64,000 bases of DNA from a virus (IMGVR_UViG_3300044712_000991:96001-160000); one strand, 5' to 3'; numbered from the stretch's first letter, positions 32,698-47,624 are shown. Notes: generated by a model from the letters alone, not told the origin. A program made the numbers and translations.

Positions 32698-32712
32698 ATC
32701 CCCACCCACTCC

Positions 32713-33354: not shown

Positions 33355-33403
33355 GTGCGACCTCCATTGATTATGAACTTGTGTACCTCTTGGCGCTTAG
33401 CGC

Positions 33404-36145
33404 TTAGCGTGGACGGGAGACCATCCACGGATGTTTTGCATTCGGTTGCCACAGGGCTTCAATAGTCCGCAGGAGACCCGCGATGTCCGTGGCCGAACTC
33501 TGCCCTGTAGCAAGACCAGCGGCGTACCCTGCTGCATAGCCGAGGTCGTAGTCTGATGTCGGCGGAGGCACAACGACCTCCGCTAGTACCACATCATCGA
33601 TGTGTATCACATCTCCGACCTGGACTGATGGTGCAAACCAGAACCGCAGGCGTGCATCCGCGTGAGAAGCAAGACCCGTGAAGTCCAACGTGAACGTCTG
33701 GGGGCTTGTGGTGAACGTGACCGTCTGATCCAATCCCAACCCCGAGTAGGGTGTGCCGTTCATATGCACCAGAACCTGCACCGTACGGCTCGTGTTGGCA
33801 TAACCGACGAAGGTCAGCCTGTAATCGGTGTCGAGTACGATGGCGAACTCCGCCTGATTGAGCTGGATGTTCGTACCAGATGAGCCACCAACGTCCATGA
33901 CGAACTCACCCCCCGTGACATCCCCCGTGACAGCCGCATCATCGGAGAAGAAAGACCACGCGGTCATACCATCGGAGAAATCTCCGTTGCGGAGAATGTT
34001 CGCGCTCGTATTCTGGTCGTTCACCGTAAGCACCGCGTTCGAGCTTGTGGTCGTACCCACGGAGTTCGTGACAGCGCACTTGATGGTCGCCCCGTTGTCC
34101 CCGATGACCGTGGTGAACGAGTACGTGCTAGCAGTCTCGCCACCCTGGAGAGTGTTGTTCTTGTACCACTGATACGTAACAGCCAGGGAACTCGTCACGC
34201 TCACCGAGAACGATGCTGTGGCACCTTTGACAACCGTGAGCGTCGTTGGAGATATGGTGACCACGGGTGGCTGCGGATTCGTATCCAACTCCAACATCGC
34301 ACCCACATTCGGCTGTGTTCCCGTACGGAGAAGCGTGATGGGGATGTTGGAGGTAATGCCCGTGGTGCTCCTGTCAAGCACGAGCACCGTGGCGGCCTGC
34401 ACATCGGTCACCGTGTACGCCACGGGGTCATTGCCAACCAGAATCTGGTCGCCAGTGGTTATTCCGTACCCATCATGGAACATCTGTGCGTCCTCGACCG
34501 CGATGCTCGTACCCGTACCCTGGGCGGTCGTGCGCGTCATGTACGTACCGGCCGCAATCGTATCCGCACCAGCCTTCGGTCCGAAGTCGTACTGCGTGTG
34601 GGAACCCGTAGGATACTGCGTGACACTCACGAACTGATCCCACGGCACTTCCACACTGTGTGTATCGAACCCCGCGTGGGTCTTCCAGTTGTCCACCGTG
34701 AAATACGTAGCGAGACCATTGGCGGGATCGCATATACGAGCGCCATCGGCGTTGGCGTACATGTTATAGTCAATGTTGGGATTCGAAGAACTGAACCCCG
34801 GACTATTGATGGACACCTCACCGTGATGATGGTTGGCCACAAAGTTATTAATGAACACGAACCCATCATCGGAAGCCCCACCATCACCGTAGTGGACAAG
34901 GGCTTGGAACCCATCCCGCGATTCCGTCCCGTTGTACGAACTGTTCCACCCCGTGTAGTCCCTGTTGTTACCGATGAAGGTGTTGTTGTACACCTTGTAC
35001 TGGCGGTAGTAAGGTGCTATGATGGGTCCGATGGCACCGAGATTGTCGTACACGATGTTGTTGCGAATAATGATACGCGCAGAGTACTCATCCCCACCGC
35101 ATGTCACGAAGCCCTTACCACCACTTCTGTTCTGTGCGACCATCACCACCCAGTCGCCATTTTCATCCTTCCACTGCGCCCACGTCTGACTACCTGTTTT
35201 ATACTGCCCATCACGATAGTCGAGCACGATACCACCATCATCCTGCCCAGGATCGCCGTAGCAGACGTTGTCCTCGATCACCACATCACCAGCACCCTTG
35301 AGATCGATGCAGTTCTCTGCGATGTCCACGAAGATGTTCTGCCGAACAATCGTTCCACAGTTTCGTACCGCAGGATGCAGGTCGTAGTCTGGCTCAAACT
35401 GGATACCGTCCTCATTCCACGTCGGTCCAAGAACGTTCTGTTCGATGAGCGTCCCTTGTATGAGAGTACTAGCCGGAGAACCAATATCCAAACAACTGCT
35501 ACCATTGTCATGGATATAGTTGTTCCGAATAATGCAGTTGCGGGGAGCCGCGCCACTTAGCCATATTCCCAACCACATCCCGTGTATCTCGTTGTTCTCA
35601 AACAACGCACCGTTACCCTCGAACATGATGCCCGTTTGCCGATAGTCCGACATGTAGTTCGTACGCCCGCCACCAGTCTGGTAAATCTTGCAGTTCTTGA
35701 TGGTGATGTTCTGCGAATCGTGGTTTCCGATGTGTACGTGGCCGATGCGGTTACTACCATCCTGCGCCTGAAACGCTGCATCTTGTGACCACGCGTAGGA
35801 TAGGGATAGTCCATCAATTACGATGTTCGACTTTGCTGGAGCGGTGTATCCATGATTGGACCCATCATTCAAAATAGGATACCACCCGATGGCGACCACC
35901 GCTGGCTCGCTCAGCCCTCGCCCAGCAATAATGGCCTCCTCGGAGAGGTACCGCTTGTACGTGATAGGCAGGGCGACCGTACCACTTCTCTCGGGGGAAA
36001 TGAGGTCTTCGTATGTCCCCCCATGGATGTACACCGTATCCCCCGGCTGAAGGGTGGTGTTTGCTTTGGATATAGTTAGCCACGGTTGTGCCGCAGTACC
36101 TGGGGCACTATCTGATCCAGTGGTGGTAATGTGATACTCTGCCAT
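33404..36145 (-). CDS. Right-handed beta-helix (DUF1565/PL9-like) + Ig-like + CBM4/9 protein (913 aa)
   Basis: YHITTTGSDSAPGTAAQPWLTISKA..LQPGDTVYIHGGTY N terminus, PbH1-like repeats, YQWYKN..YKCAVTN-type Ig domain, C-terminal CBM4. Confidence 0.8.
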   Translation of the reverse strand: MAEYHITTTGSDSAPGTAAQPWLTISKANTTLQPGDTVYIHGGTYEDLISPERSGTVALPITYKRYLSEEAIIAGRGLSEPAVVAIGWYPILNDGSNHGYTAPAKSNIVIDGLSLSYAWSQDAAFQAQDGSNRIGHVHIGNHDSQNITIKNCKIYQTGGGRTNYMSDYRQTGIMFEGNGALFENNEIHGMWLGIWLSGAAPRNCIIRNNYIHDNGSSCLDIGSPASTLIQGTLIEQNVLGPTWNEDGIQFEPDYDLHPAVRNCGTIVRQNIFVDIAENCIDLKGAGDVVIEDNVCYGDPGQDDGGIVLDYRDGQYKTGSQTWAQWKDENGDWVVMVAQNRSGGKGFVTCGGDEYSARIIIRNNIVYDNLGAIGPIIAPYYRQYKVYNNTFIGNNRDYTGWNSSYNGTESRDGFQALVHYGDGGASDDGFVFINNFVANHHHGEVSINSPGFSSSNPNIDYNMYANADGARICDPANGLATYFTVDNWKTHAGFDTHSVEVPWDQFVSVTQYPTGSHTQYDFGPKAGADTIAAGTYMTRTTAQGTGTSIAVEDAQMFHDGYGITTGDQILVGNDPVAYTVTDVQAATVLVLDRSTTGITSNIPITLLRTGTQPNVGAMLELDTNPQPPVVTISPTTLTVVKGATASFSVSVTSSLAVTYQWYKNNTLQGGETASTYSFTTVIGDNGATIKCAVTNSVGTTTSSNAVLTVNDQNTSANILRNGDFSDGMTAWSFFSDDAAVTGDVTGGEFVMDVGGSSGTNIQLNQAEFAIVLDTDYRLTFVGYANTSRTVQVLVHMNGTPYSGLGLDQTVTFTTSPQTFTLDFTGLASHADARLRFWFAPSVQVGDVIHIDDVVLAEVVVPPPTSDYDLGYAAGYAAGLATGQSSATDIAGLLRTIEALWQPNAKHPWMVSRPR

Positions 36146-36158
36146 ACGTCCTCCAGTA

Positions 36159-36178
36159 TTCTATAGCCAAAACATAGG
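36159..36178 (-). promoter_or_regulatory. Conserved 20-mer CCTATGTTTTGGCTATAGAA (candidate late promoter/operator)
   Basis: 18/20 identical to the copy at 36969-36988; both lie just upstream of an RBS. Confidence 0.5.
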
Positions 36179-36289
36179 GAGAAAACATGTGAATTTGCAG
36201 GGGGTAGAGGAGTGTAAAAACAGTACCCGGGTCTCTAGCGAACGCCTAGCGACCCAGGTACGCACTGCGGTTGTACGGAGGTTGGTGGC

Positions 36290-36604
36290 TTACGCCTGTT
36301 CGGTTGGCTCTGCGGTCGCGATACTGAGCGAAACTGCTTGCCCGCCTACGATGTCCACTTCGAGCACACCCGTCAGAGGCACAATGCCCTCTCCGAGATC
36401 GGCGTCCGCCGTGACCACGACCTGCGCATGACCAAGGGGTCCTTTGGCAATGATGGTCGCTGAGAGCCCATCTGCCTCGGGCACGACTGTCAGAAGCGCA
36501 TCATCCCCTGCCCATACGGGTGCGCCATCGACGCGTGCGGGATTGCCCTTCTTGTCCACGGGCTGGATGCTTGCAACTACCTGCTGTGTGGCGGTGATAA
36601 CCAT
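36290..36604 (-). CDS. Small Ig-like/beta-sandwich protein (104 aa; possible extension to ATG 36742)
   Basis: QPVDKKGNPARVDG..W..DGLSA..TADADLGEG motif; AAAGGA RBS. Confidence 0.6.
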   Translation of the reverse strand: MVITATQQVVASIQPVDKKGNPARVDGAPVWAGDDALLTVVPEADGLSATIIAKGPLGHAQVVVTADADLGEGIVPLTGVLEVDIVGGQAVSLSIATAEPTEQA

Positions 36605-36765
36605 GGTGTATCCTTTCAGATGTAGGTTGATGTGTGGGTAAAACACTATGAACTGCAACTGTACTGCCCGACGCTTCGAGCGCCGTTTGTGAAACGATAT
36701 TCCCTGAAACCAGTACCACAGTATGAACAAAAATCGTCTCATTTCGTTCCCCTCGATTGTGTGCG

Positions 36766-36954
36766 TTACCCACCTACCGTAATCCGGTGGAGGTCGAAGT
36801 TGAAGAACAACGTCAACAGCCATACCACAATAGCGATGATGGCGACAGCGTTCAAGATTTTCTTGATCTGCACGTCCATCGGAATGTAGTTGTTGACTAA
36901 CCACAAGACAACACCTACAACAACGAGAGTTAATAGTACGGTAATCAATGGCAT
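36766..36954 (-). CDS. Thivi_2564-family small membrane protein
   Basis: MPLITVLLTLVVVGVVLWLVNNYIPM..IKKILNAV two-helix pattern. Confidence 0.75.
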   Translation of the reverse strand: MPLITVLLTLVVVGVVLWLVNNYIPMDVQIKKILNAVAIIAIVVWLLTLFFNFDLHRITVGG

Positions 36955-36968
36955 TCAAGCCTCCTGTG

Positions 36969-36988
36969 TTCTATACCCAATACATAGG
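36969..36988 (-). promoter_or_regulatory. Conserved 20-mer CCTATGTATTGGGTATAGAA
   Basis: Second copy of the 36159-36178 motif. Confidence 0.5.
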
Positions 36989-37057
36989 TTACAAGAGGTT
37001 GTTTTGTTAGACACGAGTAGGATGAAAAAGGATTGAGATGAGGGATGAGAAAAAGAC

Positions 37058-37277
37058 GGACACGGTATCCAAGTTTCTGACCCTCTGCGGGTACTCGGAT
37101 GTGCACCTTACGGAGAAAATCTCAGCCGTTATGGGTATCGGTCTCGGGGAGGAGACTGTCCCTCCGCACAGAAGGCGGTCAGGCCACCCAACGCTAGTAC
37201 ATCTCTATGGTCACTGAGATCAGACTACACACGGGGCACCTCGTGTTCTGCACGTTGGTCGCACCCACACCGTGTCC
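37058..37277 (-). ncRNA. Promoter-driven rod-like ncRNA candidate (~220 nt)
   Basis: 9-bp terminal helix GGACACGGT/ACCGTGTCC, nested internal helices, starts at the predicted TSS and is followed by a U-run. Confidence 0.55.
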
Positions 37278-37287
37278 TAAGGCCTAC

Positions 37288-37316
37288 AATATACAACATT
37301 CTTTTGTGAAAGTCAA
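37288..37316 (-). promoter_or_regulatory. sigma70-type early promoter
   Basis: TTGACT-17 bp-TATATT. Confidence 0.8.
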
Positions 37317-37323
37317 GTTCTAG

Positions 37324-37920
37324 CTACTGCCAGAGCACAGGTCTCACGGAAAAGTCCTGGAAGTCCGCGAAGATGTTCTTCCGCAGGAGAATCCGACCGA
37401 ACGCCTCGGTCTCCCACACCGCACCGTTCAGAGCGTGGTGCGGCCGGTACTCCGAGGGGAGCCCCAAACGCTCGTAAATCATTCCCGAACTCAGTACCCC
37501 TGGATAGAACTTCCCGTGTGTATGGAAGTAGTCCGTTTGAGCCACGGAGTGCAGATCGATCGTGTGGTAGGGGAACGGGAAGTCCTTCATGGACATCCCC
37601 ACCCGCTTTGTCTCCTCCTTGAGGAACGTCAGGTCGAACTCGGGGTTCTGTCCCGCGAGCACCACGGGCACCCCCAGGGACTTCACCCACGCGTAGAACT
37701 CGGTGAGCAACGTCGGGATGTCCTTCGGGAGCGCCGCGAGTTGCTCCCGAGTGTACCCGTTGACATCCAACGCCGAGTCCTCGATGTCCACCTCGGGCGA
37801 AGGGCGTGCCTCTCCGTAGAAGTACTGCTCAGCGTTGTGCCAGTTGATGGCTCCGATGCTGATGATACCGTTCGTCTGAGGGCGTACACCTGTGGTCTCC
37901 ACATCTACGACAATCATCAT
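37324..37920 (-). CDS. DEDDh 3'-5' exonuclease (DnaQ-like)
   Basis: ExoI VDVETTG, ExoII QNPEFD, ExoIII HHAL. Confidence 0.85.
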   Translation of the reverse strand: MMIVVDVETTGVRPQTNGIISIGAINWHNAEQYFYGEARPSPEVDIEDSALDVNGYTREQLAALPKDIPTLLTEFYAWVKSLGVPVVLAGQNPEFDLTFLKEETKRVGMSMKDFPFPYHTIDLHSVAQTDYFHTHGKFYPGVLSSGMIYERLGLPSEYRPHHALNGAVWETEAFGRILLRKNIFADFQDFSVRPVLWQ

Positions 37921-37928
37921 CAGACCTT

Positions 37929-38162
37929 TCAGTTTGGTAGTGCAAACGGCTTGCTTCCAGCGGGTTCAGGATCGGGAGTGTATTCCTGTTGTATGAACTT
38001 CACCCGATGAGCGGAGATGGCGAGCCCGAACGAAATGCCATCACCTACCTGAAAGGGCGTTAGTAGGTACGCAACGGGTGTTATGGCGTATGTTTCCTTC
38101 TGCTCGTATGTTTCGGACGAGTTGTCCATGAATGTGAACTTAATCTTGAACATCCCCATCAT
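37929..38162 (-). CDS. Hypothetical protein (77 aa)
   Basis: ORF between the exonuclease and the PD-(D/E)XK gene. Confidence 0.5.
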   Translation of the reverse strand: MMGMFKIKFTFMDNSSETYEQKETYAITPVAYLLTPFQVGDGISFGLAISAHRVKFIQQEYTPDPEPAGSKPFALPN

Positions 38163-38829
38163 CCTCCGTTAGTTCTTGCTCTTCCACATCTCGTACACCT
38201 AGCACAGCCTTCTTCTTCGTCTGATACTTGTACGACCAGACTGCCGTGCCATCTCCGTGAGGGACGAACATCCCTATCCGCCGGAGAGCGGAGATGAGGA
38301 GCTTATTCTCCGCCGACAGGTTGTGCGCGGGGAACGCTATGGCTTGTTTGACCTTCCTGGGAAACGCGTGCCCCTCCGTGTACTCCAAGAGCCCCCACCG
38401 TTCGGGGAGTTCATCGGGCTTCAGGAGACCCGTGGGGGCGAGGAAGTACCGCAGGGAGCCCATGCCGAACTCGGGGTGGCGGCGGAAGTGCTTCTGCGCA
38501 TCAACGAGGAAGTCCGTACGACTCGCCTTGCACTCGATGAGGATACTCCCCCTAGAGCTCCACCCGATACCATCCGCTTCCTCCCTCTGGGAGGCCATCT
38601 CGGAGATCACAACAGCACACCGACGTTCCAACCATGCCCTACCGATCGTCACGAGCTTAGCGTGTACCGTTCGGTCGCTCTGTGCGCGTTCCGCTGCGCG
38701 AGCAGCTTCTAGCCGTGCGAAAACTTCGCGATCAAGAACGGCATCATCTGTCACGGAGGAGGGCGCTCCACAGACCGTGGGCACGGGAGGAACGTGCTCG
38801 ATGTGCTGCTGCTGTTTTCTCCTACTCAT
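38140..38829 (-). CDS. PD-(D/E)XK nuclease-like protein (MmcB-like)
   Basis: EEADGIGW...IECKASRTDFL.D, followed by RYFLAP.GLL...ELP..WGLL. Confidence 0.65.
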   Translation of the reverse strand: MSRRKQQQHIEHVPPVPTVCGAPSSVTDDAVLDREVFARLEAARAAERAQSDRTVHAKLVTIGRAWLERRCAVVISEMASQREEADGIGWSSRGSILIECKASRTDFLVDAQKHFRRHPEFGMGSLRYFLAPTGLLKPDELPERWGLLEYTEGHAFPRKVKQAIAFPAHNLSAENKLLISALRRIGMFVPHGDGTAVWSYKYQTKKKAVLGVRDVEEQELTEDDGDVQD

Positions 38830-39736
38830 CGTCAGCGTGTTCCAGGATGAGGATAACGGTCGCCACATTCTGTGTGACCATCTGCGTGATACGCCACCCA
38901 CGACTTATCATGTTCTCCACCTCGACCCACGACATATGTGGTTTGAAGGTGCCCGAAGGATCGTACGCCTTGTTGTACTCCGCCATTGTGTGGTAGAAGT
39001 CGTCAGGGCCATTCGGACCGATTATGTGTGGAAACACAATCATCTGTCGGTATTGCATGCGGTCATCCCTTCTTCGGCTGTGCGGGAGCACCGCTCGCAA
39101 GCAGGGCTTCCTGGACGAAACTCACCTTGTCCAACGCCGGGGCGTGACGGTCGTACACAGCGACCATCTTGCGCATACCCTTCACGGCCTCTTCGAGTTC
39201 AGCGGCGGTCGCCTTGTGCGCATCTCCCACCGCCTGGGTCTCCTTGTCGATCAGTTCGCCGTACTTCCGCCGGATGGTCGCGACCTTGTCCTGGGCGTCC
39301 TTGTACGAGGCTTCGATACGCTTCTCGAACTCATCAATCTGCTGTTCGAGCATCTGCTTCATTGTCATCAGGGTGTTCCTTTCTTGATTATGTGTGCGAG
39401 TTTACGATTTGCCTTCTGCTCGGCACGGAGGTCGCGCTCGACCTTGTCCGCGAGTTCCGTGTGGAGCTCTTTGAGGATCAACTCTGCGTGGCGACGGATA
39501 CGGTCAGCGGCTACTCCTGCGTACGCATCCTTGAGAACGAGGCGCGGGACGAGCATCGCCTTCGTACACTTGAACATCGTATGACACTCCTCGCACCAAC
39601 AGTCTTCCCGGAAGCCCTCGGACTCCGTGGACAGACCGCTCACGCGGTACAGGGGCTCCCCGCATTTGGGGCACAACATCTCGCTATTGCTTGCCATGGG
39701 ATGTAGTCCTTTCGTGGTCAAAGATACGCAAATCAA
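38822..39736 (-). CDS. Three small hypothetical ORFs (38822-~39061, 39063-39368 coiled coil, 39368-~39697 CxxC Zn ribbon)
   Basis: Coupled ORFs. Confidence 0.5.
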
Positions 39737-39782
39737 AGAAGAAAAGCAAATCGCGCTGAGTAAAATTACTCAACGCATTGAG

Positions 39783-39810
39783 TAAAACAAATCGGGGGCT
39801 TGCGCCCCCG
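39783..39810 (-). terminator. Rho-independent terminator of the Cas7-like gene
   Basis: CGGGGGC-GCAA-GCCCCCG followed by ATTTGTTTT. Confidence 0.8.
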
Positions 39811-39822
39811 AAGAAATGATGA

Positions 39823-40422
39823 CTACTTCACGGCTTTCACGGACTCCACCGTGAACCGCCCGTGCTCGGGACGCCAGTCGCACAGACCGATCTCCCGCCC
39901 TGCGACCTCCACGAACTTCTTGATTGAGGCTTCATCCACGAGGTCGGGCATGAAGGTCACGGTGAACGTGAGCCCCCACCGTTTGAACTCGGGGCGGGTG
40001 CGCATCACGCTCGACTGCCCGATCTTGACAGCCACGCGGGACATGTTCATCCCTTCCGCGTACAGCTTCTTGATGTCCTTCGGACCATCGTAGTCCAGGA
40101 GGTTGTCCTCGTAGATGCCGAGGGCGGACTTCGCGGTCGGTCCCTGTTTTGACCGCTTGGCGGCGTTCACAATCATCGCCTTCAGGACATACCCCGGGAT
40201 GATGATTTGGTTCTTGGTGTTGAGGTACAGGCTAGCGAAGAACTCGATCCGCGCCATCTCCTCGTGGTCGTCATCCGTCTTCTGCTTCTTGCCCGAAACG
40301 GACTTGAGCTCCTTGGATGCCTTGGACAGCGGGTCTTTCAGCGCCACGCCGTTGTGCATGATGAGACTGTCCACACCTTCGATAACGAACTGCAATTTGC
40401 GAAGACCATTTTCGGTGGCCAT
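39823..40422 (-). CDS. Solitary RAMP/Cas7-like RNA-binding protein (Vipr-like, 199 aa)
   Basis: N-terminal beta strand FVIEG..LIMHN, IP..VLKA helix, V.IG.SSVMRTRP.F..W thumb-like segment, C-terminal G-loop AGREIGLCDWRPEHGRF; CAGGAG RBS. Recognised from family motifs, not by search. Confidence 0.65.
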   Translation of the reverse strand: MATENGLRKLQFVIEGVDSLIMHNGVALKDPLSKASKELKSVSGKKQKTDDDHEEMARIEFFASLYLNTKNQIIIPGYVLKAMIVNAAKRSKQGPTAKSALGIYEDNLLDYDGPKDIKKLYAEGMNMSRVAVKIGQSSVMRTRPEFKRWGLTFTVTFMPDLVDEASIKKFVEVAGREIGLCDWRPEHGRFTVESVKAVK

Positions 40423-40486
40423 GATTTGTTTCTCCTGTATGTGCATGTTGAACTTTGTAGGCAGTCCAACGAGGCCTGTTGATGCT

Positions 40487-40542
40487 CTACTACTGACATC
40501 TACCTCTCCAATTCACACGCTACCTCACCTCAACCGCGCCTT
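40487..40542 (-). repeat. Short degenerate pentamer run in the 5' leader of the Cas7-like gene
   Basis: Plus strand acctc-tccaa-ttcac-acgct-acctc-acctc-a-accgc-gcctt (5-nt phase). Confidence 0.55.
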
Positions 40543-40553
40543 AAGTGTACCAC

Positions 40554-40582
40554 AAGATACAAAATGAATTCTCGATTGTCAA
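40554..40582 (-). promoter_or_regulatory. sigma70-type promoter of the Cas7-like gene
   Basis: TTGACA-17 bp-TATCTT. Confidence 0.8.
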
Positions 40583-40608
40583 GTGCTATGCAGAAAAATC
40601 TTTGATGG

Positions 40609-41012
40609 GTACCTAATGACCGTACCAGACTCTACCTAACCCATCCGTGACCATCCAGACCCTACCCTGCCGAACCCATTGTACCTAATGACCACACCAG
40701 ACCTCTCCACGACAGACCGAGACTTGCCTCGCCTTGCCGTTCCGTACCGCTCCAGAACAGACCAAAAGTACCTAATGACCGTACCAATGCCCACCAAACC
40801 TTTCCCCTCCCAAACCAAACATGCCTTACCGGAACGACCCTTACCATATTCAAAACGTTTTTACTTAATATCCTTACCAGACCATTACAAAACTTGCCGA
40901 TCCACTCCTATCCAGACCAATCCTCACCGTTTGTACCTAATGACCACACCGAATCCTACCGCGCCTTTCCTTGCCGAACCCAGACCTAACACATCGCTCC
41001 GATCCCAACCTT
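40609..41012 (-). repeat. Five-unit non-coding array of NN-GGY pentamers, each unit closed by CATTAGGTAC (vrRNA-like guide array)
   Basis: Plus-strand GTACCTAATG at 40609, 40681, 40768 and 40933, with a degenerate TTACTTAATA at 40861, followed by 12, 15, 16, 12 and 14 in-phase pentamers (mostly ACC/GCC/TCC + NN). Confidence 0.9.
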
Positions 41013-41295
41013 ATTTTGAAACGCTCTTTGCCCTCATCGTCGCCCCCTGCGTCCGCACGGGACACACATGGATGTCCGCTCTCTCAATCGCTCGCAGACC
41101 ACCCTGCACGCGCTGCACAGGTGTGGGGATCACTTGCGACCTCTGAGGACGATGTACATGCGTGTGTGTACGCGCTTCTACAGGGCTCACGAGGATCACG
41201 CTCTTGCGGTACTTCCGCACCTCCTGGTACGCTTCCCGCGCAGAAAAAGATAGTGCGGGAATCACCTGGTTGGAGCACCGCGTCGTGCACCGCAT
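41011..41295 (-). CDS. Hypothetical basic protein (94 aa) ending at the array edge
   Basis: Fills the gap between the phosphoesterase and the array; weak support. Confidence 0.35.
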   Translation of the reverse strand: MRCTTRCSNQVIPALSFSAREAYQEVRKYRKSVILVSPVEARTHTHVHRPQRSQVIPTPVQRVQGGLRAIERADIHVCPVRTQGATMRAKSVSK

Positions 41296-41309
41296 TATCT
41301 TGCCTAGTT

Positions 41310-42119
41310 TCACAGGCGATGCTCCGTAGGGAACTGCGCCTTGATCCTGAATAGATGGGGTTGCCACGAGTACGACCCATCGGGCTCCACATCGAACGCC
41401 ACGGCACCGAAGTGCAGAAGGCCTGAACATCTGCGTCCCCCGTATTTCGACCCCGCTGCTTGGAGCGCAGGGAGGGTCATCGCCACGGCCATCCTGTCCT
41501 TGATGGGGAAGTACGCCGCCCCATGGTAGTGCACGTGCGATCTGCACAGGATGTCCGCCCGAGGAGCTTCACCAGCCACGAACTCGAAGAGATTCCACAT
41601 CAGTTCCTTCATCACGGGCGTGAGCCTCGTGTGGGGCAACGAGGAGTTGCCTACATGGTGTTTGAAGTTGAACTTCAGCCCGTTCACATCCAGACGAACA
41701 ACATCCTCCGCCGTGGCATTGAATGCCTTGGTCATCGTGGACTCGAAGTCCTCCGCATCTCCCACATGGTACCCTGTACCGTAGGCGAAGAAGTGCTGTT
41801 TGGCACGCGCTTGCCGGATGCACACACTCGCAATCTCTGCCTGTTTGAGTCTATCTGTCGTGATCTGCTCGGTTCCACCGCTACGCATACCTTGACCATC
41901 GATGGCATCCCCGTTGACCACGAGAGCATCGATGGGTTGCAGGTCATCCATAGTGACCACATACTTGTCCCACAGTTCGCGCCGGATGTTGTACACCTTG
42001 CGACCACCGAGGGCTTTTCCAGGATCGAACTGCGGTGGGGTGAGCCCCACGATGTGTCCGCAGTGCATGTCGCCAATGACAACGATGCGTTTGGTCTTCC
42101 GTTCTGTCGCTACCGCCAT
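41310..42119 (-). CDS. Calcineurin-like metallophosphoesterase
   Basis: GDMHCGH, NGDAIDG, GTGYH, KHH and RSHVH motifs. Confidence 0.85.
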   Translation of the reverse strand: MAVATERKTKRIVVIGDMHCGHIVGLTPPQFDPGKALGGRKVYNIRRELWDKYVVTMDDLQPIDALVVNGDAIDGQGMRSGGTEQITTDRLKQAEIASVCIRQARAKQHFFAYGTGYHVGDAEDFESTMTKAFNATAEDVVRLDVNGLKFNFKHHVGNSSLPHTRLTPVMKELMWNLFEFVAGEAPRADILCRSHVHYHGAAYFPIKDRMAVAMTLPALQAAGSKYGGRRCSGLLHFGAVAFDVEPDGSYSWQPHLFRIKAQFPTEHRL

Positions 42120-42138
42120 GGGTTTCCTTTCAAGTTGT

Positions 42139-42474
42139 TTACCACAGTCTGACCTGCATCCCCAATCGGGGTATGAAGTACAGCGGTTTCTCTGTCAGCG
42201 CCCGCTCCTGCCACATCTCGATCTCGACCCCCACCCCAATCCTGGGGTGCACCCAGTACTGCACCCACTGCTTGCTGTCGAACTGCCGAGCCCAGTACCA
42301 TGTGTAGGACGACCACACGAGGGTCGAGTCCTTCAGGGGTTGATAGTGCGAAAAGCCGAGCACGGGCATCCGCGAGGGGGTGTCGTAGTACAGTTCGAAC
42401 ACCCCGTACGAGGAACTCTCTTGAGCAACACCTACGACACTGCTGAGGATCAGCAACAGAAGGATGACCTTCAC
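42139..42474 (-). CDS. Secreted aromatic-rich beta protein, possibly outer-membrane (111 aa)
   Basis: Signal peptide MKVILLLLILSSVVGVA; alternating beta pattern ending in PRLGMQVRLW. Confidence 0.5.
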   Translation of the reverse strand: MKVILLLLILSSVVGVAQESSSYGVFELYYDTPSRMPVLGFSHYQPLKDSTLVWSSYTWYWARQFDSKQWVQYWVHPRIGVGVEIEMWQERALTEKPLYFIPRLGMQVRLW

Positions 42475-42695
42475 ACACCCTCCTTGGACGCATGCACAGC
42501 GTAGGGGAACAGGCCGTGTTCCAGGAGGCATACCGCTTCGGACTCATTCATGGTCTTCAGCAGAAGGGTTTCCTGTGCGTGGGTCACGGGGTTCAGCGAC
42601 CAGACCTCCCACATCTCTCCCGAGTAGCACAGCCTACGGTGCTCGAAGTCCACCCCTGCGTAGGGGTACATCTGAAGGAACTCTGCGGTGGTCAT
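42471..42695 (-). CDS. Hypothetical protein (74 aa)
   Basis: AGGAG RBS behind the promoter. Confidence 0.55.
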   Translation of the reverse strand: MTTAEFLQMYPYAGVDFEHRRLCYSGEMWEVWSLNPVTHAQETLLLKTMNESEAVCLLEHGLFPYAVHASKEGV

Positions 42696-42720
42696 GCTGT
42701 ATCTCCTGTGTGTATGTCAC

Positions 42721-42749
42721 AATATACAACATTCGGGACTGAAAGTCAA
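42721..42749 (-). promoter_or_regulatory. sigma70-type early promoter
   Basis: TTGACT-17 bp-TATATT. Confidence 0.8.
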
Positions 42750-43228
42750 GTGGTGGCTACGACCATAGTCGGGGCATCCACGAGCACCCCATGGGTATAC
42801 CACGCCCTCCTGTCGCTCTCCTCGACCGCTGGACCATCCTCACGGTGGAGTTCGCCTTGGAAGTACCACACACGGTCACCGTTGGGATACACCTGCGCAG
42901 GACCATCGGCGCGGTGCCGCACTCCGTTGACATACCACGCCTCGTACCCACACACGGCAGGTTCCTGCTCCTTGTTCGGTCGCGGAATTGGCCACGTAAC
43001 GGCCGGTCCATCTTCCCGGTGGCGCTTGCCATGCACGAACCACTCGCACTCGCCGTTCGAGAACTCTCGGGCGGGGCCATCGGTACGGTGGAGAAGATCG
43101 TCCCCATCGTAGTAGAATGTGCCTTCTTCGGTACGTACGCTGTAGCAGTAGTGCTCCATGGTTGTGGAGTACACCTGTTCGCCCGGGACAGCGCGATTTT
43201 CATTCAGGGGTCGGAGGGGGAAGGTCAT
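42746..43228 (-). CDS. HRxDGPA-repeat protein
   Basis: Four (L/R)HRxDGPA repeats with W-(F/Y)-x-x-G spacers. Confidence 0.75.
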   Translation of the reverse strand: MTFPLRPLNENRAVPGEQVYSTTMEHYCYSVRTEEGTFYYDGDDLLHRTDGPAREFSNGECEWFVHGKRHREDGPAVTWPIPRPNKEQEPAVCGYEAWYVNGVRHRADGPAQVYPNGDRVWYFQGELHREDGPAVEESDRRAWYTHGVLVDAPTMVVATT

Positions 43229-43719
43229 CGTGCACCCTCCATGGCGAGCTTGCGAAGCTCTGCGAGCGAGAGGTCGGCCATGTTCACAGGAGCGGGGGTC
43301 TGCGTGAGAGAACTCCGTGAAGTGAGAGCATCCGCCTCGGGGGTCAGGGAGGAGCACGCAGCGAACGGTACGAGAAACTCCCGACCATCACCGAAGTCCA
43401 CCACATACTTCGTCCTGCGTGCCGAGAGGATAGTCCCACGCCGATGTGCGGGGTTCGGGCTCTTTACCGCGACCTGCGTGCCACGCTTGGCCATCCCGAA
43501 CGAGATCATGTCCGTGGACACCTCTTTGGTCTTCACGAGCGACAACGGGAGCGCGAACACGCCCTTCGCCCGATACTCCTGATCATCGAACGACCCCGAG
43601 CCCGAGGAGTACACGAGACCGAACCGCTTGGCGACCTCGGTCAAGGCTTTGTCAACCTCGCTGTGAAGGAACTTCGCTGTCTGTCTGTCCATTTTCGTGA
43701 TTGCTGCGTGCTGTGCCAT
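43225..43719 (-). CDS. Hypothetical protein (164 aa)
   Basis: GAAAGGA RBS behind the promoter. Confidence 0.55.
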   Translation of the reverse strand: MAQHAAITKMDRQTAKFLHSEVDKALTEVAKRFGLVYSSGSGSFDDQEYRAKGVFALPLSLVKTKEVSTDMISFGMAKRGTQVAVKSPNPAHRRGTILSARRTKYVVDFGDGREFLVPFAACSSLTPEADALTSRSSLTQTPAPVNMADLSLAELRKLAMEGAR

Positions 43720-43746
43720 ACTCGGTGTCCTTTCTGTTGGTGCTAT

Positions 43747-43775
43747 AATATACATCGGGGATTTGTGAAAGTCAA
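43747..43775 (-). promoter_or_regulatory. sigma70-type early promoter
   Basis: TTGACT-17 bp-TATATT. Confidence 0.8.
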
Positions 43776-43816
43776 GAGAAATCTTAGCCCACAGGCTAAG
43801 AAAATGTGCTCAAATC

Positions 43817-44059
43817 TTAGGCTGTGACCTTCTTTTTGTGCTTGATGGCGATGTATCCGCACTTCGGGCGGGAGTAGCGGATGAGCCCCTTGGCCTTCAG
43901 GCGGGCGATGGCGTTGTACGTGGCATGCCGAGACATGAAGGAGTCCCAACCCTCACCCCTGGCGGTGTACGACCGGATGATCTCCAGGATGCGCTTCTCG
44001 TTCTCGACCATCGCTGCCTGAATCTTCTCGTACGCGCTGAGCTTCTTTGACCGTGCCAT
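43817..44059 (-). CDS. Small basic protein, possibly winged-helix (80 aa)
   Basis: Basic ORF behind the promoter; YNAIARLKAKGLIRY resembles a wHTH recognition helix and wing. Confidence 0.5.
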   Translation of the reverse strand: MARSKKLSAYEKIQAAMVENEKRILEIIRSYTARGEGWDSFMSRHATYNAIARLKAKGLIRYSRPKCGYIAIKHKKKVTA

Positions 44060-44087
44060 CTGCGTTAGCCTTTCAATTGGTAGTACA

Positions 44088-44116
44088 AATATACTACACG
44101 CCGAGTCCAAAGTCAA
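44088..44116 (-). promoter_or_regulatory. sigma70-type early promoter
   Basis: TTGACT-17 bp-TATATT. Confidence 0.8.
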
Positions 44117-44151
44117 GAACTATTTTGAGAATCTTCCCCCGGGGGGCATAG

Positions 44152-44188
44152 AAAAGCCCCGCCCCGTACAGATTGTACGGGGCGGGGC
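44152..44188 (-). terminator. Rho-independent terminator
   Basis: 15-bp stem GCCCCGCCCCGTACA/TGTACGGGGCGGGGC plus U-run. Confidence 0.85.
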
Positions 44189-44215
44189 AGTCAATCGATC
44201 GTTGTCGCCGGCCAT

Positions 44216-46159
44216 TCACTTGAGTGCCATCATCTTCACCGTCGTGCGACATCGTGATGGCCCCCCTGTGCCCGTGCCAAGTTCGAGCACTGCGATGTAC
44301 GTGCCTGTCGTAGGGGCAGTCCATCTGGCGGAGTAGGTTCCCAGAGCATGATGTACACCGTTGATCAGTACAGCCTCTCTGCCGAGGATGTCCACGACCT
44401 TCAGGGTCACGGACGCTCCCTCGGGTACCGCGTACTCGATGGTCGTCTCGGGGTTGAACGGATTGGGGTAGTTCCGCAGAGCAAACTGTGTGGGCTTCTG
44501 CGGGTCCTGTTCCACCGCCGTACCGTTCACGATCTGAAATGTCTTGTCCAACCACCCACCTCCATCGGTGAGTGCCGAGGGATAGGCTGTACTCTGCGAG
44601 TAGCAACCGATGGTCATCGAATACGATCCGTTGTGGGTAATGGTCGGGAAGAAGACCACCGTCCGTGTCTGCCCCGCCGTGTAGGGCTGTAGAGTGGAGT
44701 TCAGTACAATATCGTACGGAAGTTGCTGATCTCGATCCAGATAGATACTCACATACGAGGAGGTCGGGCTCACTGTACCAGGGTATGTCCCGTGCGTAAC
44801 ATCCGCCTCAATCCGCAGTTGGGTACCCGCCTGAATGAGGGCGTTCCCTCCTTCGGACAGGAGTTCGCCTGTCTGATTGTTGTACACCCGCTGCGTGGGC
44901 AGGAAGGGCGTGTTGTGGGTGTACGTGAGGTTCGTGGTCAGACCGGCCGCGATGGTCAGCGACCCCTGCCCCCAGTACTGCTCACCCCACGGAGTGATAC
45001 GGGCGTTGTACACCTTGTACGTGTAAGTCCCCGCAGCAAGTCCCTCGAAGATCGCCGTGGACTTTGCGTTCGCCCACTTGTCCTCCACAAGATCGCCGTT
45101 CGGAGCATAGAGTTTCACATGTGCCGATGGTCCAGCGAGCCCCCACGGGTCTTCCGCACGGAGGAGGATTTCAAGTCGCCCCTCGGTCACCATGGGAGCC
45201 ACGGGATACCGTGCGACCCCCTTGTTCCAGTTGGCGATGAACACGAACGTCCCGTTCGATTGGATGGCGTAGATGTCGTACCCCGTGAGCCCCTGATTAA
45301 GGAGTTCCCACGATGTGCCCCCATTGGTCGATCTATAGGCTCCACCGACAGCCCCCTGAGGGGTGTTCGCCATGTTCCCCGCGTAGAGCACCGAACCGTA
45401 TGCACCGAGGCACTGCACGTACGGGTTGACCACCCCCACGTTTGCCGAGCTCCAGTTCACACGGTTCGTGCATTTGAGAATCCCCATCGGGCCGAGATCG
45501 TTGCTGACGCCCGCGAAGACCGCCGAGCCCGTGGCGAGCATGTCCCACACATACTTCTTGCCGTTGTTTTCCCACAGCATCCAGTGCTGTCCATAGTCGC
45601 GGGAGATGAAGATGCCCCCGTTGTCTCCTCCGAACGTACCGACGTACATGTCCGTCCCCTGCACAACGAGGGAGAAGGCGTTGGTGTTCATCAGTCGCCC
45701 ATTCGAGCCATCGGAGAACAGAGCACCGTTAGAGAACGACCACGTCGCTCCGTTGTTGGTGGACTTCTGCACCCCTCCCGATCCTGCGACAAACAATGAA
45801 CCATTGATCTTGGTAATTGCCCTGACCTGTGTATTGAGCATGGATGTCCACGAAGTCCCGTTGTCCGATGAACGCTTCACGCCATCAGTGTGCATCGCGT
45901 ACACCACACCGTCGATGACCTCCAGACCATGACAGAACTCGTTGCCGGGGGTCTTCTGCCACGCGCCACCCTGGTTTGATGACCGGAAGACCCCACTGTT
46001 GGTCGCCGCGAACACGTAGTCCCCGTTGAAGCCGATGTCGTATGTGTAGGCTGAGGTCAGCCCCGATGTGACGTACTCCCACTGCTGTGCTCTCCCCAGG
46101 GACACTCCGCAGAACAGCAGGAGGATCGAGAGGATGATGCTCAGGTTACGCTTCTTCAT
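44216..46159 (-). CDS. Secreted BNR/Asp-box beta-propeller protein with T9SS type-A C-terminal sorting domain (647 aa)
   Basis: Signal peptide MKKRNLSIILSILLLFCGVSLGRA-Q; repeated S.N.G..W Asp-boxes; C-terminal NYPNPFNPETTIEY...LKVVDILGRE...KMMALK. Confidence 0.85.
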   Translation of the reverse strand: MKKRNLSIILSILLLFCGVSLGRAQQWEYVTSGLTSAYTYDIGFNGDYVFAATNSGVFRSSNQGGAWQKTPGNEFCHGLEVIDGVVYAMHTDGVKRSSDNGTSWTSMLNTQVRAITKINGSLFVAGSGGVQKSTNNGATWSFSNGALFSDGSNGRLMNTNAFSLVVQGTDMYVGTFGGDNGGIFISRDYGQHWMLWENNGKKYVWDMLATGSAVFAGVSNDLGPMGILKCTNRVNWSSANVGVVNPYVQCLGAYGSVLYAGNMANTPQGAVGGAYRSTNGGTSWELLNQGLTGYDIYAIQSNGTFVFIANWNKGVARYPVAPMVTEGRLEILLRAEDPWGLAGPSAHVKLYAPNGDLVEDKWANAKSTAIFEGLAAGTYTYKVYNARITPWGEQYWGQGSLTIAAGLTTNLTYTHNTPFLPTQRVYNNQTGELLSEGGNALIQAGTQLRIEADVTHGTYPGTVSPTSSYVSIYLDRDQQLPYDIVLNSTLQPYTAGQTRTVVFFPTITHNGSYSMTIGCYSQSTAYPSALTDGGGWLDKTFQIVNGTAVEQDPQKPTQFALRNYPNPFNPETTIEYAVPEGASVTLKVVDILGREAVLINGVHHALGTYSARWTAPTTGTYIAVLELGTGTGGPSRCRTTVKMMALK

Positions 46160-46205
46160 TGATGTATCTCCTTGTGGATGATGGTACCCGCTTGAACTTG
46201 GTTGC

Positions 46206-46234
46206 AATATACATACAGAAAATCGAAAAGTCAA
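46206..46234 (-). promoter_or_regulatory. sigma70-type early promoter of the T9SS cargo gene
   Basis: TTGACT-17 bp-TATATT. Confidence 0.8.
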
Positions 46235-46241
46235 ATCGTGC

Positions 46242-47591
46242 TCACTGCGGAAAGCCACACCTATCGTGGAATTCCTGGACTCGCTCATCGAAGATGATGT
46301 CCTCGAACACCAACGGGCGGCTCAGTCGTAGACCGGCCATGGTGGTGCACCTGCTGAGAGCCACATAGACCTGTCCGTGAGCGAACGCACCCTTACCGAA
46401 GTCCACGATCACCCTCTCGAAGGTCTTGCCCTGCGCCTTATGGATGGTCACCGCCCACCCGAGTTTGATGGGCAACTGGGTGAAACTCCCCACGGAGGTC
46501 GCCCTCAGATGTCGGCCATCCATGGTGTACGCGTACTTGTCCCACTTCATGCTCTCCACCTGCACAACAGAGCCCTCGATGTCCACCCCAACCCAACTCT
46601 GTCCCAACTCCACGACCGTACCGATACTGCCGTTCACGAACGCCCCTCCGGGGTCGTTGCGTACGAGCATCACCTGCGCACCCACGCGAAGCTTCAGGAA
46701 CTCATCCGTAGGATGCTGCTTGTTCTCGTAGAACTGCCCACTGATGGTCGCTCTGTACAGGCGCTCGGGCATCGGGAGTCTGCGCAGTTGCTGGGTGTTG
46801 ATGGACTCCGCGATGCTGTTTGTGGCGGTGAGCATGATGGGCTCTGCCGCGACCCCTGGAGGAAACTGCGCATCATTCCAGTCCACTTTGAGACTGCACC
46901 GCCGATTCAGCAGATCAATGTCCTCCTGCTCAACCTGCCGATTGCGGATACGGTTCAGAATCTCCAGGAACTCGGGGTCGTTCTGTTGCCGGAAGGCCGT
47001 GGTGAGCATCGCGGCCTGAAACGGGGTGTCCCGCACACAGTTCGCGTCGAAGAAGAACGGGGAGGCATAACGCTCTTCCAAGAACTTCTGTGCCACCCCC
47101 TTCACCACGGGCGGAAGTTGGCAGAGGTCTCCGAAGACAATGAGTTGCACCCCACCGAACTGCTTGTCGGGCTCATCGCGATGCATGCGCAGACTCTTGT
47201 CTATGCAGTCCAGGACATCCGCCCTGACCATACTGATCTCATCGATGATGAGCGTGTCGAGTTCCTCCATCTTCTCCCGTAGAGAGTAGTGGTACTGCAC
47301 ATCCGCCTCGGGATCGAGCACCTCCTGCACGGGGAATCTGAAGAAGGAGTGGATGGTCGCGCCCCCGACGTTCAGCGCCGCGACCCCCGTGGGAGCCACG
47401 ACAGCCGTGACCCGCGTACTCAGCACTTCCTCCAACAAGTGACGGAGAAGCGTGGACTTGCCCGTACCCGCGTTGCCCGTGACAAACACATTCGGGAAGT
47501 CCTCCCTCTCCACGAGCTGGATGACCTCCTGGTACTCGGGGGTGATGATGATGTTCGTGGGTTTCTCCATTTCCATTTCAACGGTGGACAT
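46242..47591 (-). CDS. PIF1/RecD-like SF1B DNA helicase
   Basis: GNAGTGKS, DEISM, GDLCQLPP, AVTIHKAQG and YVALSR motifs. Confidence 0.92.
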   Translation of the reverse strand: MSTVEMEMEKPTNIIITPEYQEVIQLVEREDFPNVFVTGNAGTGKSTLLRHLLEEVLSTRVTAVVAPTGVAALNVGGATIHSFFRFPVQEVLDPEADVQYHYSLREKMEELDTLIIDEISMVRADVLDCIDKSLRMHRDEPDKQFGGVQLIVFGDLCQLPPVVKGVAQKFLEERYASPFFFDANCVRDTPFQAAMLTTAFRQQNDPEFLEILNRIRNRQVEQEDIDLLNRRCSLKVDWNDAQFPPGVAAEPIMLTATNSIAESINTQQLRRLPMPERLYRATISGQFYENKQHPTDEFLKLRVGAQVMLVRNDPGGAFVNGSIGTVVELGQSWVGVDIEGSVVQVESMKWDKYAYTMDGRHLRATSVGSFTQLPIKLGWAVTIHKAQGKTFERVIVDFGKGAFAHGQVYVALSRCTTMAGLRLSRPLVFEDIIFDERVQEFHDRCGFPQ

Positions 47592-47624
47592 TCGACCTCA
47601 GTATGCTATTGAGTAGATGTTTGA

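What the first reader, a model, noticed from the sequence alone, without database searches (positions are those of the whole stretch)
39823..41012. Candidate RNA-guided system: solitary Cas7/RAMP-like gene plus an array of NN-GGY pentamer guides (VIPR-like)
Seen: 40609-41012 is non-coding with strict 5-nt periodicity. It has five units. Start-to-start spacings are 72, 87, 93 and 72 nt, and the last unit is about 80 nt. On the minus (gene-sense) strand each unit is 12-16 pentamers of a variable dinucleotide plus a near-constant GGT/GGC/GGA (occasionally GTC/GTT), closed by CATTAGGTAC; one closing copy, at 40861, is degenerate. Example, unit 40609-40680: TG-GGT TC-GGC AG-GGT AG-GGT CT-GGA TG-GTC AC-GGA TG-GGT TA-GGT AG-AGT CT-GGT AC-GGT CATTAGGTAC. 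The adjacent 199-aa protein has its own promoter and terminator and carries RAMP-like features, including the C-terminal G-loop GREIGLCDWRPEHGRF. No other cas genes are in the window. Established: Cas7/RAMP proteins polymerise along guide RNA with a fixed nucleotide periodicity. Inference: each subunit binds one GGY, and the NN positions form a non-contiguous targeting code against competing phage or host DNA. This resembles VIPR (Vipr/vrRNA) systems as I recall them; I cannot confirm membership without a search.
Basis: partly seen in the sequence, partly recalled or inferred. Interest (0 to 1): 0.97.

Follow-up and report, generated by a model that had tools for sequence, protein, structure and literature searches.

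The report
Phage VIPR locus: Vipr plus guide array
An uncultured 194-kb phage carries a genuine example of the VIPR system described in 2026 (a small Cas7-like protein plus five guide RNAs built from five-base repeats), here in a stripped-down form with no accessory gene; what its guides target could not be found.

Summary
On the minus strand, 41012-40609 holds five head-to-tail units of 12-15 NN-GGH pentamers (67 in all; G at position 3 in 66/67). Four units end in an exact GGTCATTAGGTAC and one ends in a decayed copy. It is the only array of this kind in the 194,278-bp phage genome.

The adjacent 199-aa protein is a full-length homologue of the solved SUSP1 Vipr protein (PDB 36pp: E 7e-20 alone, 1.8e-47 as a family profile). 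It keeps the published guanine-contact residues and K33, and its model is a Cas7/Csm3-like RAMP fold. About 70 of 81 homologue loci in IMG/VR carry same-strand pentamer arrays beside the gene. This is therefore a VIPR system, a kind already in print (three 2026 bioRxiv preprints), and a new member rather than a new kind.

Local differences:
- No accessory (vap) gene, although its nearest relatives pair vipr with an HNH nuclease.
- The array lies only upstream of vipr.
- The tail is short (10-13 nt) and unstructured.
- The scaffold is relaxed (A at the Y position in 25% of units).

No convincing target was found. The single 22/24 hit is within chance expectation.

This scan has noted VIPR loci before on much other DNA: 525 notes in at least 355 genomes.

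The parts
39823..40422 (-). vipr gene, 199 aa plus stop. AGGAG lies 8 nt before the ATG at 40422.
   Evidence: PDB 36pp_D 'SUSP1 Vipr protein': E 6.9e-20, residues 11-194 against 5-189; family profile E 1.8e-47. phrog_4652 E 1.5e-45. AF2 pLDDT 93.4. Foldseek top hits are all Csm3/Cas7.
40554..40582 (-). Sigma-70-like promoter of vipr (TTGACA-17-TATCTT, with TG before the -10). It sits between the array and the gene.
   Evidence: The motif recurs at 54970 and 63578 on the same strand; 4 matches against 0.36 expected.
39792..39811 (-). Intrinsic terminator directly after vipr: 8-bp stem with 7 G-C pairs, followed by a T run.
39752..39777 (-). Second terminator-like hairpin.
40609..41012 (-). vrRNA array: five contiguous units of NN-GGH pentamers, each closed by a short tail.
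40933..41012 (-). vrRNA unit U1: 14 pentamers plus tail CATTAGGTAC.
40861..40932 (-). vrRNA unit U2: 12 pentamers plus decayed tail TATTAAGTAA. Possibly defective.
40768..40860 (-). vrRNA unit U3: 13-nt spacer, 14 pentamers and tail.
40681..40767 (-). vrRNA unit U4: 15 pentamers plus tail.
40609..40680 (-). vrRNA unit U5: 12 pentamers plus tail.
40502..40536 (-). Weak, short pentamer-like tract (5 of 7 units G-G/T at positions 3-4) inside the vipr 5' leader. It may be a remnant unit or a Vipr-binding site. Low confidence.

Best explanation
This is a VIPR (Viral Interference Programmable Repeat) system of an uncultured 194-kb phage.

Shown here:
- The 199-aa protein is a Vipr, the stand-alone RAMP of VIPR systems.
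- It has an intact G-loop, thumb and guanine-contact residues.
- The array has the vrRNA anatomy: 12-15 tandem GGY/NN-type pentamers followed by an invariant 3' tail.

Inferred from the published SUSP1 and P. fulva work:
- The array is transcribed and cut into five vrRNAs of about 72-93 nt.
- One Vipr protomer binds each pentamer, and neighbouring protomers lock away the G-G-H bases.
- The exposed NN dinucleotides pair with double-stranded DNA that reads NNxNNx..., skipping one target base per unit.
- The filament then sits on the DNA and blocks transcription of a competing phage, satellite or host gene.

The locus and the whole phage genome lack the HNH nuclease that accompanies nearly all of its closest relatives, and lack any vap1-like gene. 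The most likely output is therefore binding and silencing, not cutting. The vipr gene has its own host-type promoter and terminator. The array lies upstream of that promoter, so it must be transcribed from an unrecognised promoter in 41013-41309 or by read-through from the upstream phosphoesterase gene.
For: - Sequence homology to the solved SUSP1 Vipr over its full length (E 6.9e-20, profile E 1.8e-47).
- Residue mapping from the alignment onto the functional residues named in 10.64898/2026.04.26.720927: H17 to H23, K33 to K40, R138 to R143, D177 to D182, W178 to W183, R179 to R184. H23, R143 and R184 are invariant and D182 and W183 at least 90% conserved in 22 homologues.
- Confident model (pLDDT 93.4) with an RRM core and a beta-hairpin thumb at 127-146. 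All top Foldseek hits are Csm3/Cas7 of type III and VII CRISPR (E about 1e-6).
- The array meets the published caller definition: at least 4 YNNGG units, and 9-16 units plus a 3' tail in the characterised examples (10.64898/2026.04.26.720920).
- About 70 of 81 IMG/VR homologue loci carry period-5 GG arrays on the gene's strand, next to the gene.
- The closest relative (63% identity, a 171.8-kb phage) has arrays on both sides of vipr and the same upstream phosphoesterase gene.
- No self-target under the 1-nt skip rule: best 67-71% NN match, equal to shuffled guides. This is what the discovery paper reports for real systems.
- No CRISPR-period tandem repeat in the window, and no Cas1 or HNH anywhere in the genome.
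Against: - No transcription, processing or binding data exist for this locus.
- No natural target was found. Three guides gave no exact 10-11-unit match in IMG/VR, 185,579 reference genomes or JGI metagenomes, and guide U2 was never scanned against any public collection.
- The one hit, U5 at 22/24, is no better than chance in a database of that size.
- The tail is only 10-13 nt and has no predicted structure (fold z-scores -0.8 to +0.9), unlike the SUSP1 pseudoknot. How the 3' end is capped and how units are cut is unknown.
- One unit has a decayed tail.
- 25% of units have A where SUSP1 Vipr sterically excludes purines, and the pocket residues E71/M72 are Y78/V79 here.
- No promoter was recognised upstream of the array.
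- The 1-nt skip rule was shown experimentally only for type II systems.
Confidence: 0.9

Rival explanations
1. A VIPR system that destroys its targets. The Vipr-vrRNA filament would recruit a nuclease encoded elsewhere (phage or host), as expected for the HNH-associated clade in which this Vipr is nested.
For: A quick maximum-likelihood tree puts this protein and its 63% relative as a 100%-supported pair inside the clade whose members have an HNH gene directly upstream of vipr (74-78 of 81 loci). That clade is separate from the vap1-type cultured phages. The discovery paper links nuclease vap genes to target destruction.
Against: A profile of the clade's HNH proteins finds nothing in six-frame translations of this genome or of the relative's genome, and Pfam HNH finds nothing in this genome. 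Nothing in the 9 kb around vipr is shared with the homologue loci except vipr itself. The nesting nodes have only 84-90% SH-aLRT support, on a quick tree with long branches.
Confidence: 0.06
2. A decaying or idle locus: the gene and array are inherited remnants that no longer act on any target.
For: One of the five tails is degenerate. No accessory gene is present. No target was found in any collection. No array promoter was recognised.
Against: The open reading frame is intact with all key contact residues. It has a good RBS, a promoter of the phage's recurrent type and a strong terminator. Four tails are letter-perfect over 13 nt while the NN positions differ, which points to selection on the scaffold. 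The locus is kept at a syntenic place in a relative whose GC content differs by 17 points.
Confidence: 0.03
3. The pentamer tract is unrelated to the protein: a glycine-rich coding region, a G-rich structural DNA element or simple low-complexity sequence that happens to lie next to a RAMP-like gene.
For: Mechanical ORFs of 60-155 aa cross the tract.
Against: A 5-nt period cannot be a reading frame, and the phase shifts by 2-3 nt between units. The same association of array and gene recurs in about 70 independent loci. The tract is unique in the genome.
Confidence: 0.01

Closest known systems
VIPR type II system of Escherichia phage SUSP1 (Vipr + vap1 + vrRNAs; bioRxiv 10.64898/2026.04.26.720920, .720927 and 10.64898/2026.10.15.759431; PDB 36pp)
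   Same: - Homologous Vipr protein of about 200 aa with the same guanine-binding residues, G-loop and thumb.
- vrRNAs of 12-15 GGY/NN-type pentamers followed by an invariant 3' tail.
- Phage-encoded, with no cas genes and no CRISPR array.
- No self-targets.
   Different: - Only about 31% identity.
- No vap1-like gene after vipr.
- All five vrRNAs lie upstream of vipr; SUSP1 has one upstream and three downstream.
- The tail is 10-13 nt and unstructured, not a pseudoknot.
- The Y position is A in 25% of units.
- Host and targets are unknown.
HNH-associated VIPR loci of uncultured phages (IMG/VR loci L004-L082; probably one of the nuclease-bearing types III-V of the discovery paper; type number not determinable here)
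   Same: - Closest protein relatives (39-49% identity).
- This Vipr nests among them in the tree.
- Many of them also have contiguous arrays with very short tails, for example GGGTTTC-like in L006 and L014 and GGCTCGGAAC in L065. These resemble the 'staggered' arrays of fig. S18 (legend read).
   Different: - They carry an HNH endonuclease gene of about 150 aa immediately upstream of vipr, and their arrays are mostly downstream.
- Here there is no HNH anywhere in the genome and the array takes the upstream position.
Cas7/Csm3 backbone subunits of class 1 CRISPR-Cas effectors
   Same: RAMP fold with thumb and glycine-rich loop. Polymerises along a guide RNA with fixed periodicity (Foldseek E about 1e-6 to Csm3 chains).
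   Different: - 9-15% identity.
- Below the Pfam RAMP threshold.
- No Cas5, Cas6, Cas10, Cas1 or Cas2 and no repeat-spacer array.
- 5-nt rather than 6-nt periodicity.
- Gapped rather than contiguous pairing.

Membership tests
VIPR system | Vipr protein: sequence homologue of the Vipr family (stand-alone RAMP of about 200 aa) | tested here: met
   PDB 36pp_D SUSP1 Vipr: E 6.9e-20 over residues 11-194; profile E 1.8e-47. 134 phage records hold homologues, including SUSP1-like Felixounaviruses.
VIPR system | RAMP hallmarks: RRM core, thumb and glycine-rich loop | tested here: met
   AF2 model pLDDT 93.4. Beta-hairpin at 127-146 carries R141/R143, and the G-loop is at 179-190. All top Foldseek hits are Csm3/Cas7.
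VIPR system | Residues that bind G1 and G2 of the GGY motif and the target backbone (SUSP1 H17, D177, R138, W178, R179, K33) | tested here: met
   These align to H23, D182, R143, W183, R184 and K40 (alignment; paper sections read). They are invariant or at least 90% conserved in alignment A1, except K40, which is not among those columns. The Y-pocket residues E71/M72 are not conserved (Y78/V79).
VIPR system | vrRNA: tandem YNNGG (GGY/NN) pentamers, at least 4 and typically 9-16, with a conserved scaffold and hypervariable NN | tested here: met
   Five tracts of 12-15 pentamers. G at position 3 in 66/67, G at position 4 in 53/67, T or C at position 5 in 49/67 and A in 17/67; 14 different NN. 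Relaxed motifs such as TGH/NN are already reported (10.64898/2026.10.21.760802).
VIPR system | Invariant 3' tail after the repeat tract | tested here: met
   GGTCATTAGGTAC is exact in 4 of 5 units and occurs nowhere else in the genome. It is short and shows no predicted structure, unlike the SUSP1 pseudoknot.
VIPR system | Array adjacent to vipr on the same strand, a pattern that recurs in homologues | tested here: met
   The array ends 186 nt upstream of the vipr start codon (40609 to 40422). About 70 of 81 homologue loci have same-strand arrays beside the gene.
VIPR system | Accessory gene (vap) in an operon with vipr (typical, not universal) | tested here: not met
   Nothing around vipr is shared with the homologue loci. 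There is no similarity to wV8 gp94 or MakoManhole gp77. No HNH is found in the genome. The paper names seven types but six vap genes, so a vap-less form does not exclude membership.
VIPR system | vrRNAs are expressed, processed and bound by Vipr | not testable with these tools
   Needs sRNA-seq or a pull-down.
VIPR system | Guides match natural targets under the 1-nt skip rule and do not match the phage's own genome | tested here: inconclusive
   No self-target. No target in the relative phage or in other VIPR loci. Exact 10-11-unit runs of U1, U3 and U4 are absent from the three collections; U2 was not scanned in any collection and U5 only as a 9-unit pattern in IMG/VR. The one U5 hit of 22/24 is within chance.
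CRISPR-Cas (class 1) | Repeat-spacer array and further cas genes (Cas5/6/8/10, Cas1/2) | tested here: not met
   No CRISPR-period tandem repeat in the window. No Cas1 or Pfam RAMP match in the genome.

The most novel reading that the evidence does not exclude
This locus and its 63% relative may define a vap-less VIPR lineage, kept at one syntenic site (after a metallophosphoesterase gene) in a clade of 170-195-kb phages. It would have descended from HNH-nuclease VIPRs by loss of the nuclease, that is, a switch from cutting to pure silencing. Its vrRNA ends would evolve fast: a 10-13-nt unstructured tail here, and a hairpin of about 45 nt in the relative. If so, a 13-nt linear tail is enough to define and cap a vrRNA, which would make this about the smallest VIPR known.
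Probability: 0.3. Interest if true: 0.45.

Novelty: new member of a known kind. Interest (0 to 1): 0.33.

Why it matters
VIPR systems were first described in 2026 and are thought to be older than CRISPR, so each well-dissected natural locus helps map their range. This one shows the system in a large uncultured phage in its barest form: one protein gene, five guides, no accessory gene and only a 13-nt tail. It sits phylogenetically among nuclease-linked relatives. That makes it a convenient test case for two questions. What is the minimum a vrRNA needs at its 3' end? Does loss of the nuclease partner turn a cutter into a silencer? It does not change the picture of what VIPR is.

Tried and rejected
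1. Target hunting.
- The 3'-most 9 units of U5 hit four IMG/VR contigs at one shared 35-nt site, 22/24 NN.
- I rejected it as evidence for four reasons. The site lies in a 242-aa ORF beside glycosyltransferases with the skip base on codon position 1, not the wobble position. The contigs have 41-45% GC and share nothing with this phage. P(at least 22/24) is about 9e-12 per position, which predicts roughly one such hit by chance if the collection holds roughly 1e11 positions; that size is my own estimate, not stated by the tool. No other guide hits those loci.
- Ten-unit patterns of U1, U3 and U4 (3' ends) and of U4 and U1 (5' ends) gave 0 hits in IMG/VR.
- Eleven-unit patterns gave 0 hits in genome contigs (U4, U1) and in metagenome contigs (U4, U3).
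- Exact-run searches miss targets with scattered mismatches. U2 was never scanned against a public collection.

2. Self-targets and nearby candidates: none in the own genome at 0-2 nt skip, none in the 171.8-kb relative and none in 87 other loci.

3. Translating the guides as NNx codons gave plausible but unplaceable peptides.

4. The Zn-ribbon ORF 39371-39697 (-) as a new vap:
- It has no similarity to vap1-like proteins or to the small Zn-ribbon ORF after the relative's locus.
- Two terminators separate it from vipr.
- It has only sub-threshold Pfam hits.
- Rejected for lack of evidence.

5. Other checks that led nowhere.
- Rfam found nothing for the array or its flanks.
- TRF does not see the array because its units are too variable.
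- A second in-phase GG locus at genome 169090-169164 looks like coding sequence by eye; no frame or family check was run.

6. Tools that could not be used.
- The target contigs L085-L088 are not held as whole records.
- The supplementary tables of the discovery paper are not held, so the formal VIPR type number could not be assigned.

Full report
**Observation**

Read on the minus strand, 41012-40609 is a run of five head-to-tail units:
- U1 41012-40943, 14 pentamers
- U2 40930-40871, 12 pentamers
- U3 40847-40778, 14 pentamers
- U4 40765-40691, 15 pentamers
- U5 40678-40619, 12 pentamers

Four units are closed by an exact CATTAGGTAC; the conserved block is really 13 nt, GGTCATTAGGTAC. U2 is closed by a decayed copy, TATTAAGTAA. 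Over the 67 pentamers, position 3 is G in 66, position 4 is G in 53 and T in 11, and position 5 is T 37, A 17, C 12, G 1. The first two positions take 14 different dinucleotides.

Lag-5 self-identity is 0.43 against 0.29 +/- 0.02 in shuffles, z = 6.6. This is the only place in the 194,278-bp genome with 8 or more in-phase GG in 12 pentamers. The 13-nt tail occurs nowhere else. The pentamer phase shifts by 2-3 nt from unit to unit, so the tract cannot be coding.

**The protein**

The ORF at 40422-39826 (-) has an AGGAG ribosome-binding site. It gives a 199-aa protein with no Pfam match and a strong match to an unannotated phage family, phrog_4652 (E 1.5e-45).

Against all PDB sequences its only real hit is 36pp chain D, 'SUSP1 Vipr protein': E 6.9e-20 over residues 11-194 against 5-189 of 202. 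A profile of 22 homologues raises this to E 1.8e-47 over the whole length.

The cryo-EM paper names the residues that hold the vrRNA (10.64898/2026.04.26.720927):
- H17 and D177 for G1
- R138 and W178 for G2
- R179 for Y3
- K33 for the target backbone

In the alignment these fall on H23, D182, R143, W183, R184 and K40. H23, R143 and R184 are invariant, and D182 and W183 are at least 90% conserved, in alignment A1. The two helix-1 residues said to exclude purines at Y3 (E71, M72) are Y78 and V79 here. This may relate to the 25% of units that carry A at that position; that link is an inference.

The AlphaFold model is confident (pLDDT 93.4, pTM 0.87). All its top Foldseek hits are Csm3/Cas7 subunits of type III and VII CRISPR complexes (E about 1e-6, TM about 0.5). 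The Foldseek PDB copy predates the Vipr entries.

**Signals around the gene**

- A sigma-70-like promoter (TTGACA-17-TATCTT) lies at 40582-40554 (-), between array and gene.
- A strong terminator lies at 39811-39792 (-), right after the stop codon, followed by a second hairpin.
- The promoter form TTGACA-N17-TGTATnTT recurs twice more on this strand in the window. The looser pattern searched, TTGACA-N16-18-TAYNNT, has 4 matches against 0.36 expected.
- No promoter was recognised in the 300 nt between the upstream gene and the array. How the array is transcribed is therefore open: read-through from the upstream gene or an unrecognised promoter.
- None of the five units folds better than its shuffles (z -0.8 to +0.9), so there is no structured tail.
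- Rfam has nothing here.

**Relatives**

- tblastn finds homologues in 134 cultured phage genomes, including the SUSP1-like Felixounaviruses at about 31% identity. The best are Gordonia, Pseudomonas and Mycobacterium phages at 34-39%.
- 63 metagenomic proteins match at E below 1e-5.
- A pattern scan of IMG/VR found 348 loci, of which 80 were kept.
- Scanning these and L002 for in-phase GG, about 70 of 81 carry period-5 arrays on the gene's strand, mostly just downstream and sometimes upstream.
- The closest relative (63% identity; a complete 171,836-bp phage with terminal repeats and GC 38%) has arrays on both sides of vipr. Each of its units ends in a hairpin tail of about 45 nt.
- That relative also has a homologous metallophosphoesterase-like gene upstream of the array, as here (E 4e-5). 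The locus is therefore syntenic in two large phages of very different base composition.

**Accessory genes**

- In cultured phages (wV8, MakoManhole, Medea1, LittleE, LESphi2, Trine), vipr is followed by an overlapping or closely adjacent gene: 146-188 aa in five of them and 267 aa in Trine. This is the type II arrangement.
- In 74-78 of the 81 IMG/VR loci, a gene of about 150 aa with an HNH nuclease domain lies immediately upstream of vipr.
- In about 22 of those, the vipr-array part of the module lies upstream of the portal gene, and TerL and an AbrB-like gene lie further upstream on the same strand.
- Here neither kind of accessory gene exists. Nothing in 9 kb around vipr is shared with the homologue loci except vipr. 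The HNH profile finds nothing in this genome or in the relative's. Pfam HNH, Cas1 and RAMP find nothing in the genome.
- A quick ML tree pairs this Vipr with the 63% relative (support 100). It nests the pair, with 84-90% support, inside the HNH-associated clade, apart from the vap1-type cultured phages. The careful tree search did not finish, and the long branches call for caution.
- Several members of the HNH-associated clade also have contiguous arrays with very short tails. These resemble the 'staggered' arrays of the discovery paper (fig. S18 legend).

**Targets**

I followed the published rule: guide NN joined by one wildcard, both strands scanned. The five guides have no match in the phage's own genome beyond what shuffled guides give (67-71%). 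This agrees with the papers' finding of no self-targeting. There is also nothing in the relative phage or in 87 other loci.

The one hit was a 9-unit pattern of U5. It matched four IMG/VR contigs at one shared site, 22/24 NN. I do not count it as evidence:
- The site puts the skip base on codon position 1 of a 242-aa ORF.
- The contigs are unrelated to this phage.
- About one hit of that quality is expected by chance, assuming roughly 1e11 positions in the collection (my estimate).

Exact 10- or 11-unit runs of U1, U3 and U4 were absent from IMG/VR, the reference genomes and the JGI metagenomes. U2 was never scanned against a public collection. The targets remain unknown. A mismatch-tolerant search could not be run on the public collections with these tools.

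**Comparison with what is known**

VIPR systems were described in three 2026 preprints. They consist of a Vipr RAMP, vrRNAs of 9-16 GGY/NN pentamers plus a 3' tail, and recognition of double-stranded DNA with one skipped base per unit. They repress transcription of competing phages and satellites. Seven types and six vap families are named. A fourth preprint already reports relaxed scaffolds such as TGH/NN.

Every defining feature that can be tested in silico is met here except the typical, not universal, accessory gene. The locus is therefore a member of a known kind.

Its particular traits are modest variations rather than a new kind:
- no vap, despite descent from a nuclease-linked clade
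- an upstream-only array
- a 13-nt linear tail
- a GGH scaffold
- a host phage of 194 kb

This scan has already noted VIPR loci on much other DNA: 525 notes in at least 355 genomes.

**Verdict**

This is a new member of a known kind, of moderate-to-low interest.

Noticed in passing
L004-L082 (IMG/VR loci), e.g. L006:595-1041, L043:736-5583: In 74-78 of 81 homologue loci an HNH endonuclease gene of about 150 aa sits immediately upstream of vipr. In about 22 loci the vipr-array part of the module lies upstream of the portal (DUF4055) gene, with TerL and an AbrB-like gene further upstream on the same strand. This suggests a recurrent insertion site in the packaging region.
   Followed up: partly
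window 40502-40536 (-): A short degenerate pentamer tract (5 of 7 units with G-G/T at positions 3-4) lies inside the vipr 5' leader, downstream of the promoter. It could be a remnant sixth unit or a site where Vipr binds its own mRNA. It could also be chance.
   Followed up: partly
window 41013-41309 (-): About 300 nt of apparently non-coding leader lie between the metallophosphoesterase-like gene (42119-41310, -) and the array. It holds an imperfect G+C-rich hairpin (about 41260-41233) and no recognised promoter. The source of array transcription is unexplained.
   Followed up: no
window 39371-39697 (-) and L003:4052-4189: A small CxxC...CxxC zinc-ribbon ORF follows the VIPR locus in this phage (109 aa) and in its 63% relative (45 aa). 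The two show no detectable similarity, and here two terminators separate the ORF from vipr.
   Followed up: partly
window 3036-6412: Tandem Repeats Finder reports three blocks of a 132-nt repeat (2-4.4 copies, 68-85% matches). It is probably a repeated protein module. Not examined.
   Followed up: no
window 54970-54998 and 63578-63606 (-): Two more promoters of the form found before vipr (TTGACA-N17-TGTATATT) suggest a shared class of host-polymerase (early?) promoters in this phage.
   Followed up: no
window 31765-31839: A tRNA-Pro-like stretch, 85-90% identical to the tRNA-Pro genes of Synechococcus T4-like cyanophages, was the only megablast match of 30000-50000 to cultured phages.
   Followed up: no
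window 36766-36954 (-) and L038:51-239: A 62-aa ORF about 3 kb from vipr is 61% identical to an ORF near the vipr of an unrelated IMG/VR locus. This is a single case, of unknown meaning.
   Followed up: no
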